Below, piece by piece: positions 18,599-38,585 of a DNA stretch of 64,000 nucleotides (positions within the stretch are counted from its first letter, which is position 1; each line of letters opens with the position of its first letter). Position numbers and translations under genes: made by a program. The stretch lies in NCBI RefSeq assembly GCF_024223415.1, contig NZ_CP100501.1. One strand, given 5' to 3'. The notes beneath the pieces are model-generated. The model had not been told where the DNA came from. It saw only the letters and a list, made by a program, of their open reading frames with translations, and ran no database searches. The stretch comes from Escherichia coli (GTDB lineage Bacteria > Pseudomonadota > Gammaproteobacteria > Enterobacterales > Enterobacteriaceae).

Positions 18599-19012
18599 AT
18601 GTTTTTTATTAAGAATGAAGGTCAGGCTGTCGCCAGAACGGATTACTGGCAGTCTGTACAGGCGCAGGCCGGATATGTCTACCTCAGCTGGAATGCCGGC
18701 GCAGCCAGGCTGCTTGTCCCGGATGCGGCAAAACATTTACTCAGGGAGATGCGGGGGGCTGAGTACGTCATCATCAGTAAGGGAACGCTGCATGGCCGCG
18801 ATGCGCTGGAACTGATATTTGAAGACGGCAGCGATGCGCCGTTCGTGATCCACATGCTGAGCGAGCAGTGCGATCGCCTGCTCCCCGAAAACAACCAGGG
18901 CGGGGGTTTTGTTGTCACCGTCTGGACGCGTGGCGGTAACCAGCTCCGTTATCCGGGAAAGTACCGTGTTGTGGAAAACCTGCCCGACGTTTCCCCGTGG
19001 AGTGAACACTGA
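18599..19012 (+). CDS. Hypothetical protein upstream of the recombinase
   Basis: Start at ATG 18599 with AAGGAG RBS; stop overlaps the recombinase start (TGATATG). Confidence 0.5.
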   Translation: MFFIKNEGQAVARTDYWQSVQAQAGYVYLSWNAGAARLLVPDAAKHLLREMRGAEYVIISKGTLHGRDALELIFEDGSDAPFVIHMLSEQCDRLLPENNQGGGFVVTVWTRGGNQLRYPGKYRVVENLPDVSPWSEH

Positions 19013-21500: not shown

Positions 21501-21645
21501 TGATATAATGCTCAAATTGAGTAGTTAACTGCCCCAGGTAAGTACGCAGCTTGAGTACTTACCTGTGGTTTATGAACGTATTTACTTAATGTGAGTAGTT
21601 ATTGGGTGAAGATTAATACTCAAATTGAGTATAAATGGAGATGGT

Positions 21646-22620
21646 ATGAGAATTTTTTGCGATGATGGTTCTACAAATGTGAAACTTGCCTGGTTTGAAG
21701 GCAAGACGCTGAAAAGTGCGGTATCAGTGAACTCTTTTCGCCATAACTGGAAAGTCGAGGGCTTAGGCAGCAGTCGTACCTATAACTATTTGCTTGATGG
21801 CCGTAAATATACCTACGACCCGGTCAGCGAAGATGCGATCAGCACGACTCATATTGAGTATCAGTACTCTGATACAAATGTGTTGGCAGTTCACCACGCA
21901 TTACTGAACAGTGGAATTGAACCCCAGGAGATCGATCTCACCGTTACGTTACCTATCAGCGAGTTTTACACGGCCGACTGCCAGAAAAATACGCTTAACA
22001 TTGAGAGAAAAATTCGCAACCTGATGCGGGAAGTCACCCTGAACAAAGGGGGAACTTTTACCATTAAAAGCGTTGAAGTGATGCCTGAATCACTCCCGGC
22101 TGTATTTACTCGCCTAGTTGCTGACAATGTTGGTCAGTACGAAAAATCATTGGTTATCGATCTCGGTGGTACAACTCTGGATGTCGGGGTTATTGTTGGC
22201 CAGTTTGAGGATGTTTCGGCTGTACATGGTAATCCTGATATTGGTGTATCAATGGTCACGAAAGCCACGCTCACTGCACTGAAAATGGCCAGCAGTGATA
22301 CCAGTCCAATGATTGCTGACGAGTTGATCAAAAACAGGAAGAACCTGGATTTTGTGGGGCAGGTTGTAAATGAGGTTTCTAAACTAAATCTGGTGCTGGA
22401 TACCATTGATACAGCGATAAATAAACTGGGCGAGCTAGTTGTTGATGATTTGCTGCAGTATCGAAACGTAAACCGCGTATATATTGTCGGAGGCGGGGCT
22501 GCACTCATTGCTGATGCTGTTCGTAAGGCATGGAACCACCTTGGCGAAAAGGTGGTTCTTATGGATGAACCTCAGACAGCGCTGGTCCAGGCTATTGCAC
22601 GCTTCAAAGCGGAGGAGTAA
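21646..22620 (+). CDS. stbA: Actin-like segregation ATPase StbA/ParM
   Basis: MRIFCDDGSTNVKLAW N-terminus (actin-fold phosphate-1 motif); start at ATG 21646 with GGAG RBS. Confidence 0.85.
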   Translation: MRIFCDDGSTNVKLAWFEGKTLKSAVSVNSFRHNWKVEGLGSSRTYNYLLDGRKYTYDPVSEDAISTTHIEYQYSDTNVLAVHHALLNSGIEPQEIDLTVTLPISEFYTADCQKNTLNIERKIRNLMREVTLNKGGTFTIKSVEVMPESLPAVFTRLVADNVGQYEKSLVIDLGGTTLDVGVIVGQFEDVSAVHGNPDIGVSMVTKATLTALKMASSDTSPMIADELIKNRKNLDFVGQVVNEVSKLNLVLDTIDTAINKLGELVVDDLLQYRNVNRVYIVGGGAALIADAVRKAWNHLGEKVVLMDEPQTALVQAIARFKAEE

Positions 22621-22623
22621 TCG

Positions 22624-23016
22624 ATGTACGACGGCGAAGAAAGGAAAAAACTTTCACTCTACCTTCACCCGGAGGACTCTGCCGATTGTCTTGCACTGGC
22701 TGAAATCGAAACTGTTCCCCGGAAAAAACGGGGGGAGTTATATCGGCAGGCTTTGATAACCGGCCTGATAATGCATCAGCTTGATGAGAGAATTCCCGCC
22801 GTGTTAACCGCGCTATTCACCAGAGAACTGAATGCGGATGAGGTCATTAGTCAGATTGCCAGGATAACAGGCTGGAAACCCTCCTCCGGTGATTTAAAAG
22901 AGGTACTGAAGGCGTTGGGAGGGCTTCAGAGTACAGTTTCACCAGAACTCTCTCAGGATGACGGTGAACAGGCCCGTCTGAAAGCGGCTAGGGTGAAGAT
23001 GCAAAAGCTAATCTAA
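22624..23016 (+). CDS. stbB: StbB/ParR-like partition adaptor
   Basis: 130-aa ORF immediately downstream of stbA. Confidence 0.6.
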   Translation: MYDGEERKKLSLYLHPEDSADCLALAEIETVPRKKRGELYRQALITGLIMHQLDERIPAVLTALFTRELNADEVISQIARITGWKPSSGDLKEVLKALGGLQSTVSPELSQDDGEQARLKAARVKMQKLI

Positions 23017-23171: not shown

Positions 23172-23279
23172 CTAGTGTGGTTTCAGACGTTGTTCGATTT
23201 CATTCTGTAGCGCCTGAAGTGTGCCTGATTTGAGGTTTTTTGTGCTCTGGCGGTCGAAAAGAATTTCAATGCGGATCAT
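23172..23279 (-). CDS. DinI/ImpC-like small ORF, apparently truncated (35 codons)
   Basis: MIRIEILFDRQSTKNLKSGTLQALQNEIEQRLKPH resembles the DinI N-terminus; GGGAGA RBS; LexA box just upstream. Confidence 0.35.
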   Translation of the reverse strand: MIRIEILFDRQSTKNLKSGTLQALQNEIEQRLKPH

Positions 23280-23300
23280 GTTCTCATCTCCCTTTTATTT

Positions 23301-23320
23301 TACTGTGTATATATACAGTA
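23301..23320. promoter_or_regulatory. LexA (SOS) box
   Basis: TACTGTGTATATATACAGTA, one mismatch from the CTGT-N8-ACAG consensus palindrome. Confidence 0.65.
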
Positions 23321-23672
23321 TTCTAATAACTGAATCCACACACAGTCAAATGTCATTGTTGTGACTAAAAAACGCTCAATTCTCTGAGAGTGTGGCTGTA
23401 TGCCTGCTGTGGACTGCTGTGTCCAGCTTATCCACAGCATTTTGTGCACGGTTCTGTGGACAAAATACCTGGTTACCCAGGCCGTGCCGGCACGTTAACC
23501 GGGCTGCATCCGATGCAAGTGTGTCGCTGTCGCCGGCCTTCTCACCCGGTCACGTTTCGTCGTTCCTCCTCCACGAGCTGCGGCTTCGGGGCCGCACCTG
23601 CATTCGTATGCGGTCGCCCGGTTACAGGTGCGGCACGGCCTGATGGAGGCCGCATGTGAGAGGAGAATTCCC

Positions 23673-24599
23673 ATGCCAAACTGGTGCTCAAATCGTATGT
23701 ATTTTTCTGGTGAACCGGCACAGATTGCTGAGATTAAACGACTGGCCAGCGGTGCAGTCACACCGTTTTATCGCCGCGCCACAAATGAAGGTATTCAGCT
23801 GTTTCTGGCCGGAAGTGCCGGACTTCTGCAGACCACTGAAGATGTGCGGTTTGAACCATGTCCCGGACTGACGGCTGCCGGACGTGGCGTTGTATCGCCG
23901 GAGAATATCGCGTTCACCCGCTGGCTGACATACCTGCAGGACGGTGTACTGCTGGATGAGCAAAACTGCCTGATGCTGCATGAACTCTGGCTGCAGAGCG
24001 GTACTGGACAGCGTCGCTGGGAAGGATTACCGGACGATGTCAGGGATACCATCACCGCACTTTTCACCGCAAAAAGAGGTGACTGGTGTGGCTTCTGGAG
24101 TAACGAAGATGTATCGGTGTGGTGGAACCGTCTGTGTGACAACGTACTGCCGGAAAAAACCATGCCGTTTGACCTGCTGACGGTTCTGCCCACCCGCCTG
24201 GATGTTGAAGTGAATGGCTTTAACGGTGGTGTTCTGAACGGTGTTCCTTCTGCATATCACTGGTATACGGAACGGTATGGCGTGAAGTGGCCTGTGGGGT
24301 ATGAGGTGAATATCAGTAATCAGGGAGACAACTTCATTAAGGTGGATTTCGACACGCCGTGGTGTCAGCCGGAAAGCGACGTTATTGCAGAATTAAGCCG
24401 CCGTTTCAGCTGCACGCTGGAGCACTGGTATGCCGAACAGGGCTGTGATTTCTGTGGCTGGCAGTTGTATGAGCGCGGAGAGCTCGTTGATGTGCTGTGG
24501 GGGGAACTGGAATGGTCTTCCCCGACAGATGACGATGAGCTGCCGGAAGTCACCGGACCTGCGTGGATAGTCGACAATGTGGCGCATTATGGCGGATGA
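23673..24599 (+). CDS. Hypothetical leading-region protein
   Basis: Start MPNWCSNRMYF at ATG 23673 with GAGAGGAG RBS; conserved-looking, function unknown. Confidence 0.6.
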   Translation: MPNWCSNRMYFSGEPAQIAEIKRLASGAVTPFYRRATNEGIQLFLAGSAGLLQTTEDVRFEPCPGLTAAGRGVVSPENIAFTRWLTYLQDGVLLDEQNCLMLHELWLQSGTGQRRWEGLPDDVRDTITALFTAKRGDWCGFWSNEDVSVWWNRLCDNVLPEKTMPFDLLTVLPTRLDVEVNGFNGGVLNGVPSAYHWYTERYGVKWPVGYEVNISNQGDNFIKVDFDTPWCQPESDVIAELSRRFSCTLEHWYAEQGCDFCGWQLYERGELVDVLWGELEWSSPTDDDELPEVTGPAWIVDNVAHYGG

Positions 24600-24981
24600 A
24601 GTATGACGGAGACGGGCGGGCAACTGCCCGTTTCTTTTCCGGTAAAGGATGTCGCCATGCTCCTCTTTTTACTGCGCCGGCTGACGCGGCGCGGCATAAA
24701 CGCTGCCTGTGGTCAGTGTCCCGCGTCCGGTGGGCACGGGACGGGCGCTTTTACCGCTCCCGGCTGGCGTCGGTGACAGTGTACGCCAGCCTGTCGCCCT
24801 TTTCTGATGAACGCCCTTCAAGCCGCTTTCGCGGCATAACCTTGCCGTCAAACAGACGACGGCTGCGGTATTCCACGGTCGGCCTGACCCGTTACCGGAC
24901 GCGGTGAACAGCCCACAGGCAGCGGGGAACGGGCACCACAGGGGTGCCCTCCCGGTGCCCCCTGTAAGAGAAGGAGCTGTT

Positions 24982-25665
24982 ATGTCCCGTTTTATCCTGG
25001 GTGACTGCGTGCGTGTTATGGCCACGATTCCTGATAACGCCATTGATTTCATATTAACCGATCCGCCATATCTCGTCGGTTTCCGTGACCGTTCCGGGCG
25101 CACCATTGCCGGTGACGTTAATGATGACTGGCTGCAACCGGCCTGTAATGAGATGTACCGCGTACTCAAAAAAGACGCGCTGATGGTCAGCTTCTACGGC
25201 TGGCACCGTATTGACCGCTTTATGGCGGCCTGGAAACGCGCCGGATTCAGCGTGGTTGGCCACCTGGTCTTCACCAAAAACTACACATCCAAATCTGCGT
25301 ATGTCGCGTACCGCCACGAATGCGCTTACATCCTGGCAAAGGGCAGTCCGGCCCGGCCCCGTAACCCGCTGCCGGATGTGCTGGGCTGGAAATATTCGGG
25401 CAACCGCCATCACCCGACGGAAAAGCCCGTTACCAGCCTGCAACCGCTGATTGAGAGCTTCACACATCCGAACGCGATTGTGCTGGATCCGTTTGCAGGC
25501 AGCGGTTCAACCTGCGTGGCCGCCCTTCAGTCCGGACGCCGGTATATCGGTATCGAGCTGCTTGAACAGTATCACCGTGCCGGACAGCAACGACTGGCCG
25601 CCGTGCAACGGGCCATGCAGCAGGGGGCCGCGAATGATAACTGGTTTATGCCGGAGGCTGCGTAA
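24982..25665 (+). CDS. Orphan DNA methyltransferase (N6-adenine/N4-cytosine class, beta-group order)
   Basis: DPPY motif near the N-terminus and FAGSGST near the C-terminus; start MSRFILGD with GAAGGAG RBS; no adjacent restriction gene. Confidence 0.85.
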   Translation: MSRFILGDCVRVMATIPDNAIDFILTDPPYLVGFRDRSGRTIAGDVNDDWLQPACNEMYRVLKKDALMVSFYGWHRIDRFMAAWKRAGFSVVGHLVFTKNYTSKSAYVAYRHECAYILAKGSPARPRNPLPDVLGWKYSGNRHHPTEKPVTSLQPLIESFTHPNAIVLDPFAGSGSTCVAALQSGRRYIGIELLEQYHRAGQQRLAAVQRAMQQGAANDNWFMPEAA

Positions 25666-27217: not shown

Positions 27218-27548
27218 GCAGGCTCCGCTTTACTCGGCCATGCGGGGCATGGCCTTGTGGGTTTTCAGTTATGTGGCCTCAGCGTCGTGTGCGGGCTGTG
27301 CCGTGCCTCCATCGTAGCCGGGCTTCTGCGGGCGGGTTGCAAGGTAAGGTGAACCGCTGCGGTCACCCGGTCCCTCCTTCCCGTCTGCCGTGATTTTCCG
27401 GTCGTTCACCCGCTCAGATTTCGCGGTCTCACCCTCCAACTCCCGCCAGCCGTGTGCGTCAGGCTGCGGCTTCCCTTGCGCCCTTGCAACCCTGCAGGCC
27501 CGGCAAAGATGGAGGCACGGCACCGCCCGGTGTCGCGGAATATGTGAA
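27218..27548 (+). repeat. Leading-region repeat family A, copy 1 (single-strand promoter-like)
   Basis: About 330 bp, near-identical by eye to 34139..34478; ends about 17 bp before the klcA start. Confidence 0.6.
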
Positions 27549-28647: not shown

Positions 28648-28832
28648 TACAGGGGCAGGCGGTGGAGGCCGCCTGTCAGCCCGCGCGAAAACCCCTGGCA
28701 GGCTGGCGCCTGCCGGAAGGGATGCGGGCCACGCTGGCGCGTCGCCCGTTACCCTTCCTGTTGGTGACAGGCGTTGTTTCAGGAAGTACCTGTTACAGAC
28801 CTGTCGTTAAAGAACCTTCTTACACATGCGCC

Positions 28833-29395
28833 CCTTCGGCTCCCGGCTGCCTGGCGGCATCCGGTCGTCAGGCCCGACTCCGACAGGCAGCTGCTGGCGC
28901 ACCCGCCAGTCTCCGCCGAACCCGCTGGCGCGGTTTCGGGCTGTCGCTACGGTCCGATGCGTGAAAACCCGGGCTTGCAGCGACCGTTCCGGTCGCGCCG
29001 CCTCTGTCGCGCCGTGACCTGCGCTCCCTGCACACCTGACGGTGTGTGAGGAAACTGCGCCTGATGGCGCAGCAGTCCTCCCTCCTGCCGCCACCTCTGC
29101 GGCCTGTTTCCCGCTGTGGACTTTCCGGGGGGCAGACGTAACCCCCTCCCGTTCCATCTGTCCAGGGTGAGATGCACCGGCCACAAAATTTTTAGCCATG
29201 AACCCGGCAAAAAATTTTGCGTCCGCCCCCGGACAGCTGCCCCGTGAGGCGGTAAACGGGCCCCCATCGGAAAGGTCCACTGCGGGGAGAAACCCCTGTG
29301 AAGTGGACGGCAGGAGGAGCTTTCGCTCCTCTGAAGGGGCACATGAACGTCCCGTCGCCGGTATCCGGTTTATCTCACATCTTTCAGTCAGGAGG
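28833..29395 (+). repeat. Leading-region repeat family B, copy 1 (single-strand promoter-like), upstream of ssb
   Basis: About 560 bp GC-rich block, highly similar by eye to 35179..35720 and, over its 3' about 360 bp, to 38229..38585. Confidence 0.6.
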
Positions 29396-34138: not shown

Positions 34139-34478
34139 GACGTCGCCGCCGGCTCCGCTTTTACCCGGCCATGCGGGGCATGGCCTTGTGGGTTTTCAGC
34201 TCTGTGGCCTCAGCGTCGTGTGCGGGCTGTGCCGTGCCTCCATCGTAGCCGGGCTTCTGCGGGCGGGATGCAAGGTAAGATGAACCGCTGCGGTCACCCG
34301 GTCCCTCCTTCCCGTCTGCCGTGATTTTCCGGTCGTTCACCCGCTCAGATTTCGCGGTCTCACCCTCCAACTCCCGTCAGCCGTGCGCGTCGGGCTGCGG
34401 CTTTCCTTGCGCCCTTGCATCCCTGCAGGCCCGGCAAAGATGGAGGCACGGCACCGCCCGGTGTCGCAGAACATGTGA
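34139..34478 (+). repeat. Leading-region repeat family A, copy 2, upstream of ardA
   Basis: Near-identical by eye to 27218..27548. Confidence 0.6.
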
Positions 34479-34996: not shown

Positions 34997-35178
34997 TTTA
35001 CTCCCCCGCTCCGGCGGGGGTATGGCCTGCCGGGCCGCCGGAAAACCCTGGCAGGCTTACGCCTGCCTGAAATACAGGAGGGCCGCGCCTGCGGCGCTGC
35101 CCTTCCTGCCCGTCATGGTGTGAGGCATTTTTCTGTTTTGTCGTTTCTGTTGTTCTGATGCCCGGAGGCGGGGACACC

Positions 35179-35720
35179 CTTCGGCTCCCGGCTGCCTGGC
35201 GGCATCCGGTCGTCGGCCCGACTCCGACAGGCAGCTGCTGGCGCACCCGCCAGTCTCCGCCGAACCCGCTGGCGCGGTTTCGGGCTGCCGCTACGGTCCG
35301 ATGTCTGAAAAACCAGGCCTGCAGCGACCGTTCCGGTCGCGCCGCCCCTGTCGCGCCGGAAACGGCGCTCCCTGCACACCTGACGGTGTGTAAGGCCACT
35401 GCGCCTGATGGCGCAGTCAACCCTTCCGCCGCCACCCCTGCGGCCTGTTTCCCGCTGTGGACTTTCCGGGGGCTGAAGCGGCCACAACACGGGGCAGCCG
35501 TCCAGGGGAGAGATGTACCAGCCACAAAACTTTTTGCCGCAGGCGTCAAAAACTTTTGCGTCTGCCCCCGGACAACTGCCCCGTGCCGTGGCAGTCGCTG
35601 CCCCATCGGAAAGGTCCACTGCGGGGAGAAACCCCGAAGAAGTGGACGGCAGAAGGGGCTTTCGCCCCTCCGGGGGAGCAACCGGTCGGCCCGGCGACCT
35701 GATTCAGCAGAAGGAGACGT
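35179..35720 (+). repeat. Leading-region repeat family B, copy 2
   Basis: Similar by eye to 28833..29395; immediately upstream of the ORF at 35725. Confidence 0.6.
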
Positions 35721-38010: not shown

Positions 38011-38228
38011 AAAACACCTTTGAAAAAGTGAAAAAACTTCACTTTATTTTATCATCACAATTGCCAAATCAGCGCGATAAATAAGTGTAAAAAAGTGAAG
38101 AAATTTCACTTTTTTTGGTTGTAAATGTCGTGCGGTTTTCTCTGTTTTCACCTGTGCGGGAGTGGTGTGCCAGTGACCACCACATGCCATTGTTGTGCCG
38201 TCGTTTTTCTTCAGTCGCGCCGGATGCG

Positions 38229-38585
38229 GCGCTCCCTGCACACCTTACGGTGTGTAAGGCCACTGCGCCTGATGGCGCAGCTGCCTCTGCCTGTCTGCCG
38301 CCGCACTGCGGCCTGTTCTCCGCAGACGGACTTTCCGGGGGTACATACACGACCACATCCCGTTTCAGTCGTCCAGGGGAGAGATGTACCAGCCACAAAA
38401 CTTTTTGCCGCAGGCGTCAAAAACTTTTGCGTCTGCCCCCGGACAACTGCCCCGTGACGTGGTGAGCGTCCCCCGTCGGAAAGGTCCACTGCGGGGAAAT
38501 CCCCGAAGACCCGGACGGCAGAAGGAGCTTCGCTCCTCCGGGAAATGACCTGGCTGACCCGGCAGTCGTGACGATGAGGAGACAA
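38229..38585 (+). repeat. Leading-region repeat family B, copy 3 (shorter), upstream of the ORF at 38587
   Basis: Similar by eye to the 3' about 360 bp of the other B copies. Confidence 0.55.

What the first reader, a model, noticed from the sequence alone, without database searches (positions are those of the whole stretch)
23406..23463. Cluster of DnaA-box-like sequences at the distal edge of the leading region
A perfect DnaA box TTATCCACA (23428..23436) is flanked by TGTGGACAA (23455..23463, complement TTGTCCACA) and CTGTGGACT (23406..23414) in a GC-rich non-coding stretch just upstream of the first leading-region gene. This could be a DnaA-dependent priming or regulatory site.
Basis: seen in the sequence. 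Interest (0 to 1): 0.3.

Follow-up and report, generated by a model that had tools for sequence, protein, structure and literature searches.

The report
Conserved DnaA-box inverted repeat, plasmid leading region
A perfect binding site for the host replication initiator DnaA, paired with an inverted weaker copy, sits at the far edge of the first-transferred part of this conjugative plasmid. It is conserved in thousands of plasmids, including F, and may be where the host starts copying the incoming single strand, but this is untested.

Summary
The core observation is real. TTATCCACA lies at 23428-23436 (+). Its inverted 1-mismatch copy TGTGGACAA lies at 23455-23463. The third "box" is really at 23407-23415, has 3 mismatches and is not conserved as a box. 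The window as a whole is not enriched in DnaA boxes, but a perfect box with a ≤1-mismatch partner within 60 nt arises in only 0.8% of simulated windows.

Conservation is the stronger evidence. The ~83-bp module (23390-23472) occurs in ~4,150 IncI1/IncF plasmids, including classical F, about 95 bp past sopC. In Klebsiella, Citrobacter and Salmonella plasmids, where flanking DNA no longer aligns, the 9-mer varies only at position 3, the degenerate W of TTWTNCACA. The inverted TGTGGA core persists at spacings of 17, 18 or 28 nt. In Erwinia, Pantoea and Pluralibacter the same module sits elsewhere in the leading region.

The window's oriT nick motif puts the module on the transferred strand, 16.5 kb from nic, next to a large GC-rich hairpin typical of single-strand promoters.

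Best guess (confidence about 0.35): a DnaA-box hairpin like the ABC-primosome "A site" that loads DnaB and primase on the incoming strand. A double-stranded DnaA-binding role is nearly as likely. Covariation does not prove the hairpin, and no function has been tested.

The parts
23428..23436 (+). Perfect R-type DnaA box TTATCCACA (box 1). It reads TGTGGATAA on the transferred, minus strand.
   Evidence: Invariant in 11 aligned plasmid lineages. Across 15 lineage sequences it varies only at position 3, and at position 1 once.
23455..23463 (-). Inverted weaker box TTGTCCACA (1 mismatch, at position 3), 18 nt from box 1 (box 2).
   Evidence: The core TGTGGA is kept in most lineages (two variants). 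Full variants are TGTGGACAA, TGTGAATAA (a perfect TTWTNCACA match), TGTGGACAG, TGTGGATAT and TGTGGAGGA.
23407..23415 (-). CTGTGGACT. Not a credible DnaA box (CAGTCCACA, 3 mismatches). It is the left arm of a 9-bp perfect inverted repeat with box 1 (23405-23413 with 23431-23439).
   Evidence: Present only in the E. coli-type (IncI1/F) variants and itself variable there (GGACTG, GGATTG, GGGCTG, GGAGTG).
23390..23472 (.). The conserved module. It is bounded by recurrent homology breakpoints at about 23390 (the F-type sopC junction) and about 23473 (plasmids where parC abuts the big hairpin directly).
   Evidence: About 4,150 PLSDB records carry at least 80% of it.
23405..23466 (-). Predicted alternative small hairpins on the transferred strand. 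Hairpin A pairs 23405-23414 with 23430-23439. Hairpin B pairs 23428-23437 with 23454-23463. A third pairs 23439-23449 with 23456-23466.
   Evidence: DNA folds: -18.1 kcal/mol, z = -4.5 for the minus strand. The same hairpins appear in the 301-nt context. Inverted repeats I3, I5 and I6.
23478..23642 (-). Large GC-rich (67%) imperfect hairpin directly next to the module, upstream of the DUF1281 gene. A candidate single-strand-DNA promoter (ssi-type element).
   Evidence: (301 nt, -75.6 kcal/mol, z = -6.7). For context on ssDNA promoter classes see PMC12672017. Its identity with the published 'class 3/ssp3' promoter could not be established.
23673..24599 (+). DUF1281 gene (yfaB/yccB-like), the first gene of the leading region in transcription order.
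   Evidence: Pfam PF06924 and PF18406 on homologues.
40000..40007 (-). oriT nick-region motif CATCCTG|T on the minus strand, upstream of nikA/nikB. It defines the minus strand as the transferred strand and the DNA below 40 kb as the leading region.
   Evidence: nikB relaxase at 40436-43138. The match to the IncP/IncI nick consensus YATCCTG|Y and to R64 oriT is from memory.

Best explanation
The module is a DnaA recognition element that acts on the incoming single strand. Steps 1-2 are shown or read from the sequence; steps 3-5 are inferred.

1. During conjugation the minus strand enters the recipient 5'-first from nic at about 40.0 kb.
2. The module, 16.5 kb behind nic, enters just after the large promoter-type hairpin.
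3. The inverted copies let the strong 9-mer fold into a short duplex stem. In E. coli-type plasmids it pairs with the left or right copy; in Klebsiella, Citrobacter, Salmonella, Erwinia and Pluralibacter types it pairs with the right copy.
4. Host DnaA binds this duplex box and recruits DnaB-DnaC, as at the ABC-primosome 'A site'.
5. DnaB then moves 5'->3' along the still-entering strand, away from the leading region. DnaG lays primers, and Pol III extends them back toward oriT.

This would start discontinuous complementary-strand synthesis at or behind the leading region while leaving that region single-stranded for a time.
For: - The box is a perfect R-type DnaA box with an inverted partner.
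- Phylogenetic footprint: the 9-mer is the longest invariant run across IncI1, F-type, Klebsiella and Citrobacter lineages whose flanks and spacers have diverged beyond alignment. Over 15 lineage sequences it changes only at the W position of TTWTNCACA, and once at position 1.
- The module moves as a unit. It lies upstream of the DUF1281 hairpin in E. coli, Klebsiella, Salmonella and Citrobacter. It lies between the methylase and antirestriction operons in Erwinia and Pantoea, and after DUF1281 in Pluralibacter. With one exception, all these sites are in leading-region intergenic DNA, and the strong box is always on the coding strand.
- It is on the transferred strand, as shown by the nic motif on the minus strand and by gene order.
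- Folds put the box core in a stem in nearly every lineage folded. In Erwinia the spacer is itself a 9-bp GC hairpin stacked on a 9-bp box stem (-15.4 kcal/mol, z = -3.6). The transferred strand folds better than the + strand there, because the conserved TTGTCCACA partner gives G.T on that strand and A.C on the other.
- Precedent: a single DnaA box in an ssDNA hairpin is enough for DnaA/DnaB/DnaC/DnaG priming (PMC6127211, PMC3105425, PMC3737561).
- In F, conversion outside the leading region keeps pace with DNA entry, and distal leading loci convert before proximal ones (preprint 10.64898/2026.01.09.698686). That fits a start at or behind the distal edge. F carries the module at 52610-52645.
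- One predicted non-mobilizable plasmid has a 1-nt deletion inside the box.
Against:
- Hairpin stability is no better than shuffles in several lineages (z from -0.2 to -1.5; one fold has no box stem at all).
- Covariation on the proposed stem equals the shuffled controls: 83% of cells paired, with 249 of 500 shuffles at least as high. The inverted repeat alone therefore does not prove a hairpin.
- G.T wobble preference for the transferred strand is not consistent across lineages.
- Spacer lengths are restricted to 17, 18 or 28 nt, a difference of about one helical turn. That suggests a double-stranded phasing constraint.
- The module is dispensable in some plasmids typed as conjugative: parC abuts the big hairpin directly in L025, and C. 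werkmanii L012 lacks it.
- IncI1 plasmids classically carry their own transferred primase (from memory; not checked in this window), so host priming may be redundant.
- A copy sits between convergent chromosomal-type genes on Pantoea dispersa megaplasmids, outside any conjugation context.
- No paper in the searchable library links DnaA to leading regions.
Confidence: 0.35

Rival explanations
1. A DnaA-binding site that works on double-stranded DNA. After establishment, DnaA occupies the strong box and cooperatively the weak inverted one. It would then act as a regulator, insulator or roadblock at the boundary of a leading-region operon. Examples are damping read-through from sopAB or parMR into genes meant to be silent in duplex form, or slowing complementary-strand synthesis into the leading region.
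For: - The same conservation evidence for DnaA recognition applies.
- Spacers have unrelated sequences but lengths of only 17, 18 or 28 nt, a difference of about 10-11 bp, as expected for helical phasing on duplex DNA.
- There is no covariation signal specific to a hairpin, and several lineages have weak hairpins.
- In the window and in F an upstream same-strand operon (parMR, sopAB) points into the module.
- The Pantoea megaplasmid copy lies in ordinary double-stranded context.
Against: - No sigma-70-like promoter overlaps the boxes on the + strand, so classical repression is not apparent.
- Upstream context differs between plasmids: divergent impCAB in IncI1, sopC in F, a small ORF in Klebsiella. 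There is therefore no constant read-through to block.
- Centre-to-centre distances of 26-27 or 37 bp are half-integral turns, which is awkward for contact between two bound proteins.
- This reading does not explain why the module keeps to leading-region intergenic DNA, next to the large single-strand hairpin in the DUF1281 and Erwinia contexts, nor why the Erwinia spacer is itself a strong hairpin.
Confidence: 0.25
2. The conserved feature is the inverted repeat TCCACAG...CTGTGGA, acting as a small hairpin or operator for something other than DnaA. Candidates are an accessory element of the adjacent single-strand promoter or a plasmid-encoded protein. On this reading the DnaA-box match is incidental.
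For: - The most conserved part shared by both arms is the 6-7 nt core.
- The module directly abuts the base of the large hairpin, 15 nt away.
- A 10-mer GCTGTGGACT of the left arm recurs in the Frpo-type repeats at 29113 and 35454.
Against: - Conservation of box 1 extends asymmetrically into TTAT, which is exactly the DnaA 9-mer. The only tolerated variation is at the known degenerate position. The partner arm does not mirror this, which a symmetric operator or a pure stem would not predict.
- In the Klebsiella, Salmonella Rubislaw and Pluralibacter lineages (and with A in place of the final G in two Klebsiella plasmids) the flanks give GTTATCCACAG, as in oriC R1/R4 (from memory).
- The 10-mer recurrence is close to chance, since the two Frpo copies are duplicates of one another.
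Confidence: 0.15
3. No function. A chance DnaA-box match has hitch-hiked on a recently spread, highly similar leading-region cassette.
For: - Most of the ~4,150 carriers are 90-100% identical, so their number says little.
- The window is not enriched for boxes.
- Some plasmids lack the module.
Against: - The box and its inverted core persist where spacer and flanks are randomised, in Klebsiella, Citrobacter, Salmonella, Erwinia, Pantoea and Pluralibacter. They also persist at different positions in the leading region.
- BLAST homology to the Erwinia copy starts exactly at the box in about 40 Pantoea plasmids.
Confidence: 0.1

Closest known systems
ABC-primosome 'A site' (Masai, Nomura & Arai 1990; Masai & Arai 1995; Carr & Kaguni 2002): an ssDNA hairpin carrying one DnaA box R1 sequence
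   Same: A single strong TTATCCACA that can be presented as duplex within a stem on DNA that is otherwise single-stranded. It is plasmid-borne (the A site's plasmid origin is from memory). Only host proteins would be needed.
   Different: - The hairpins here are short (6-11 bp) and often marginally stable.
- Two or three alternative partner arms exist.
- The site is in a conjugative leading region beside a promoter-type hairpin.
Frpo / ssi class 1-3 single-strand DNA promoters of F and IncI1 plasmids (Masai & Arai 1997; Bates 1999; PMC9849209; PMC12672017)
   Same: Same neighbourhood and same strand logic: elements that only make sense on the transferred strand, in intergenic DNA upstream of leading operons. 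Frpo transcripts also prime DNA synthesis.
   Different: - The module is about 60 nt, not a 150-300-nt stem-loop.
- It has no reconstituted -35/-10.
- It shares no homology with the Frpo-type repeats in this window.
- It would use DnaA rather than RNA polymerase.
DnaA boxes of plasmid origins (F oriS, R1 oriR, pSC101, P1 oriR) and the DnaA box near the pBR322 origin
   Same: The same 9-mer, read by the same host protein, to bring in DnaB.
   Different: No iterons, rep gene or DUE-like AT-rich element travels with the module. The nearby AT-rich stretch is the impC promoter and is absent in F. The module lies 16.5 kb from nic at a leading-region boundary, not in a replicon.

Membership tests
DnaA box (R-type, TTATCCACA / TTWTNCACA) | 9-mer match to the consensus | tested here: met
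   Perfect match at 23428-23436. The partner at 23455-23463 has 1 mismatch. The third site has 3 mismatches and does not qualify.
DnaA box (R-type, TTATCCACA / TTWTNCACA) | Selective conservation of the 9-mer, with variation confined to degenerate positions | tested here: met
   Invariant in alignment A4. Of 15 lineage sequences, 12 have TTATCCACA, one TTTTCCACA, one TTGTCCACA and one GTATCCACA.
DnaA box (R-type, TTATCCACA / TTWTNCACA) | Bound by DnaA | not testable with these tools
   Needs EMSA, footprinting or ChIP.
ABC-primosome A-site-type single-strand initiation signal | Lies on DNA that exists single-stranded in vivo | tested here: met
   The nic motif on the minus strand at 40000-40007, and leading genes on + upstream of nikAB, make the minus strand the transferred strand. 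The nick consensus is from memory.
ABC-primosome A-site-type single-strand initiation signal | DnaA box held in the duplex stem of a stable hairpin | tested here: inconclusive
   The box core is in a predicted stem in nearly every lineage folded. However, z-scores range from -4.5 to about 0, one lineage shows no such stem, and covariation is no better than shuffles.
ABC-primosome A-site-type single-strand initiation signal | DnaA-, DnaB-, DnaC- and DnaG-dependent priming on SSB-coated ssDNA | not testable with these tools
   A biochemical or M13 ssi assay is required.
ABC-primosome A-site-type single-strand initiation signal | Sequence relationship to the original A site | not tested
   The original papers are not held and no sequence was available.
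Frpo / class 1 ssDNA promoter | Homology to Frpo/ssi repeats, and a long stem-loop that reconstitutes -35/-10 | tested here: not met
   The module is not part of the repeat families at 28.8-29.4, 35.2-35.7 and 38.2-38.5 kb. It forms only 6-11-bp stems. The neighbouring 23478-23642 hairpin, not the module, has that architecture.
Plasmid vegetative origin | DnaA boxes together with iterons, an AT-rich unwinding element and an adjacent rep gene | tested here: not met
   No short direct repeats. The module is 48-52% GC. The neighbours are parMR, an impC remnant and DUF1281.

The most novel reading that the evidence does not exclude
The DnaA-box hairpin is the natural in vivo counterpart of the in vitro ABC primosome. 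On this reading it is a conserved entry point, in the leading regions of F, IncI1, IncFII(K) and Erwiniaceae plasmids, where recipient DnaA loads DnaB and primase on the incoming strand. It would thereby set where and when single-to-double-strand conversion begins, and so how long the single-strand promoters stay active.
Probability: 0.3. Interest if true: 0.75.

Novelty: new member of a known kind. Interest (0 to 1): 0.5.

Why it matters
How the complementary strand is primed in the recipient during F-like conjugation is still not settled. Frpo transcripts can prime in vitro, yet rifampicin does not stop conversion. Recent single-cell work shows discontinuous synthesis that keeps pace with DNA entry outside the leading region (10.64898/2026.01.09.698686).

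A conserved host-initiator site at or within the leading region would give a concrete, mutable candidate for the primosome loading point. It is only about 60 bp and is present in classical F at 52.6 kb. It would also give the ABC primosome a natural role. The timing of conversion controls how long anti-defence genes are expressed from single-strand promoters, so such a site could affect how well resistance plasmids establish in new hosts. If instead it is a double-stranded DnaA site, it would link leading-region control to the host replication cycle.

Tried and rejected
- **Box density as evidence.** Window-wide box counts are at background, so enrichment was rejected. Only the local pair is unusual.
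- **The third box.** The site at 23407-23415 was rejected as a DnaA box: 3 mismatches and not conserved.
- **Covariation test.** The test of the box1:box2 stem on 13 lineages gave no signal above shuffles. The sequences were chosen for having the repeat, so the 83% pairing is partly circular.
- **Strand-specific G.T analysis.** Results were mixed across lineages.
- **Promoter and terminator scans.** Only the impC promoter on the minus strand (23349-23320) was found, plus one terminator-like site at chance frequency. No promoter overlaps the boxes.
- **Rfam.** Nothing relevant.
- **Origin-like architecture.** No iterons were found, and the only AT-rich stretch is the impC promoter.
- **Literature.** No paper in the library links DnaA boxes to leading regions. 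F ssiD/ssiE are the Frpo copies and ssiA is near oriV-2. The original A-site papers are not held.
- **Identity of the big hairpin.** I could not decide whether 23478-23642 is the published class 3/ssp3 promoter. A second large hairpin lies directly upstream of the methylase gene, and figures and supplements were not available.
- **Failed or wasted calls.** A first simulation timed out, and a first guess at pESBL coordinates hit the wrong region.

Full report
**What is in the sequence**

The window is a p746/pETEC_73-like IncI1-type plasmid. Around the finding, the layout is as follows.
- parM/parR run from 21625 to 23016 on the + strand.
- A truncated impC (dinI-like) gene lies on the minus strand at 23279-23172. 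It has a perfect LexA-type palindrome at 23303-23322 and a promoter-like site at 23349-23320.
- A 390-bp non-coding stretch follows, then the DUF1281 gene (ATG at 23673).
- Within that stretch, TTATCCACA is at 23428-23436 and TGTGGACAA at 23455-23463.
It matches the DnaA box in only 6 of 9 positions.
- The repeat finder shows three overlapping inverted repeats: 23405-23413 with 23431-23439 (9/9), 23428-23437 with 23454-23463 (9/10), and 23439-23449 with 23456-23466 (10/11).
- The module is 48-52% GC. The GC-rich element (67%) is a 165-nt imperfect hairpin at 23478-23642.

**Is it more than chance?**

Across the window, boxes are at background: 4 TTWTNCACA against 4.64 expected, and 18 boxes with ≤1 mismatch against 12.7 expected. 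A perfect box with a ≤1-mismatch neighbour within 60 nt appeared in 0.8% of 2000 Markov simulations. That is suggestive but post hoc. The decisive evidence is comparative.

**Distribution**

- The 91-nt module matches 4,165 PLSDB records, 4,153 of them over ≥80% of its length. These are mostly Escherichia, Salmonella, Shigella and Klebsiella plasmids, in a few haplotypes.
- Homology blocks start at about 23390 in F-type plasmids, where the module directly follows sopC.
- Classical F carries it at record positions 52,610-52,645, about 95 bp past the last sopC repeat.
- Some plasmids lack the module. In L025 and L026 a divergent parMRC abuts the big hairpin at the equivalent of 23473.
- The module is therefore a separable unit of about 83 bp. 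It travels with the leading region rather than with whatever lies upstream, and it is not indispensable.

**Phylogenetic footprint**

I anchored on the DUF1281 protein and collected diverged loci.
- In an 11-sequence alignment (IncI1, pCoo, F-type, C. freundii, K. pneumoniae) the longest invariant run is exactly TTATCCACA. TGTG.A.A is invariant in the partner.
- Further lineages keep the arrangement with unrelated spacers: K. pneumoniae pKAM260_3 and pRA111, Klebsiella sp. PL-2018, and Salmonella Pomona and Rubislaw.
- Box 1 variants are TTATCCACA, TTTTCCACA and TTGTCCACA. The only variable position is the W of TTWTNCACA.
- Box 2, read as a DnaA box, is TTGTCCACA, TTATTCACA (a perfect consensus match, in IncI1), CTGTCCACA, ATATCCACA or TCCTCCACA.
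- C. werkmanii and many Pantoea and Erwinia loci have no box upstream of DUF1281.
- A C. portucalensis plasmid predicted to be non-mobilizable has a 1-nt deletion inside the box.

**The module appears at other positions in leading regions**

- Erwinia persicina, Pantoea eucrina and E. amylovora plasmids carry T(T/G)ATCCACA-N28-TGT(G/A)GACAA (perfect TTATCCACA in the first two, GTATCCACA in E. amylovora). It lies between the methylase operon and the antirestriction (KlcA/ArdB-type) operon.
- Pluralibacter carries TTATCCACA-N28-TGTGGACAA just after the DUF1281 gene.
- BLAST of the Erwinia region finds 45 records, mostly Pantoea plasmids. Most alignments begin exactly at the box.
- One exception to the leading-region rule: a 46-nt copy lies between convergent transporter and cupin genes on Pantoea dispersa megaplasmids of about 700 kb.

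**Which strand, and what neighbours?**

- The window has CATCCTG|T on the minus strand at 40007-40000, inside a sequence I recognise (from memory) as R64-type oriT. It lies upstream of nikA and nikB, and nikB is a relaxase.
- All leading genes are on the + strand: DUF1281, methylase, antirestriction, ssb, parB-like, psiB and psiA.
- The minus strand is therefore transferred and serves as template. DNA enters from 40 kb downward, and the module is 16.5 kb from nic, at the distal edge.
- On that strand the module follows the 23478-23642 hairpin (z = -6.7). This hairpin resembles the single-strand promoters described for F and pESBL (PMC9849209, PMC12672017).
- A second such hairpin precedes the methylase gene. 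I could not tell which of the two is the published class 3/ssp3 promoter.

**Structure**

- As ssDNA, the window's module folds at -18.1 kcal/mol (z = -4.5) on the transferred strand, with the box core paired to the left copy.
- In Klebsiella, Citrobacter and Salmonella the box pairs with the right copy, but stability is weak (z from 0 to -1.8).
- In Erwinia the spacer is a 9-bp GC hairpin stacked on a 9-bp box stem (-15.4 kcal/mol, z = -3.6). The + strand scores -13.9 (z = -2.0).
- The recurrent TTGTCCACA partner gives a G.T wobble on the transferred strand and an A.C mismatch on the other strand. This strand preference is not consistent across lineages.
- A formal pair count on 13 lineages gives 83% of cells paired, but no covariation beyond shuffles.
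- Spacer lengths are only 17, 18 or 28 nt even though spacer sequences are unrelated. That is a length constraint of about one helical turn, and it fits a duplex role at least as well as a hairpin role.

**Interpretation**

The asymmetric conservation matches its 9-mer and its known degeneracy.

What DnaA does there is inferred. The best-supported mechanism is an A-site-like primosome assembly signal on the incoming strand (confidence about 0.35).
- The precedent is solid: one DnaA box in a hairpin suffices for DnaA-dependent DnaB loading and priming.
- DnaB's 5'→3' polarity would carry the primosome along the still-entering DNA, with primers extended back toward oriT.
- That fits F kinetics. 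Conversion keeps pace with entry outside the leading region, and distal leading loci convert before proximal ones.

The main rival is a double-stranded DnaA site acting as boundary, regulator or roadblock (about 0.25). A non-DnaA hairpin or operator (about 0.15) and no function (about 0.1) remain possible.

**Novelty**

Nothing in the searchable literature connects DnaA boxes with leading regions. The known F ssi sites are elsewhere. If the mechanism holds, this is a new, widespread member of the A-site kind, and it is easy to test in F. If it does not hold, it is still a clearly conserved DnaA-type site of unknown role.

Noticed in passing
window 23172-23349: A truncated impC (dinI-like) gene on the minus strand: 35 codons of the 82-codon IncI1 ImpC, then a stop. 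Its LexA-type palindrome TACTGTGTATATATACAGTA (23303-23322) and a promoter-like site (23349-23320) are intact. impAB are missing, and parMR lies next door instead.
   Followed up: partly
window 23478-23642 and 24600-24990: Two large GC-rich imperfect hairpins on the transferred strand (z = -6.7 and -6.5), upstream of the DUF1281 gene and of the methylase gene. One is probably the published class 3/ssp3 single-strand promoter, but I could not tell which. The other would then be undescribed.
   Followed up: partly
window 27229-27528 / 34160-34459; 28832-29357 / 35177-35696 / 38214-38462: Repeat families in leading-region intergenic DNA. One is a 300-nt pair at 97% identity, upstream of the antirestriction gene and of a downstream operon. 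The other is a three-copy family upstream of ssb and later operons. They are consistent with class 2 and class 1 (Frpo/ssi) single-strand promoters.
   Followed up: no
window 23406-23415, 29113-29122, 35454-35463: The 10-mer GCTGTGGACT, the left arm of the module, recurs on the same strand inside the two Frpo-type repeats (3 found against 0.18 expected). Those two copies are duplicates of each other, so the excess is weak.
   Followed up: partly
L036 5003-5046 (Pantoea dispersa megaplasmid NZ_CP082347.1, about 500.7 kb): A 46-nt copy of the Erwinia-type module (TTATCCACA-N28-TGTGGACAG) lies between convergent RND-transporter and cupin genes on megaplasmids of about 700 kb in 8 listed records. 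This is outside any conjugation context. It may be a relic, or a sign of a more general role.
   Followed up: partly
L033 about 525-535 (C. portucalensis NZ_CP099369.1): The box carries a 1-nt deletion (TTACCACA) in a plasmid typed as non-mobilizable, with no relaxase. This is a single anecdote that fits relaxed selection once transfer is lost.
   Followed up: no
L003 2968-2979 and 2673-2682 (K. pneumoniae pNU-CRE047_2): CCTGTCCACA, 30 nt upstream of the DUF1281 start codon, is perfectly complementary to the module's right arm TGTGGACAGG about 290 nt away. The pair could close a giant loop around the large hairpin. It is not conserved in the Citrobacter type.
   Followed up: no
window, whole: YATCCTGY occurs 17 times against 7.8 expected (0 of 100 shuffles reached 17). 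Only the copy at 40000-40007 is in an oriT context. The excess may simply reflect codon usage (ATC-CTG).
   Followed up: no
window 18846-18978: Two DnaA-box-like sites 124 bp apart: TGATCCACA on +, and TTTTCCACA on -, which is a consensus match. They lie inside or near a hypothetical gene upstream of a site-specific integrase gene.
   Followed up: no
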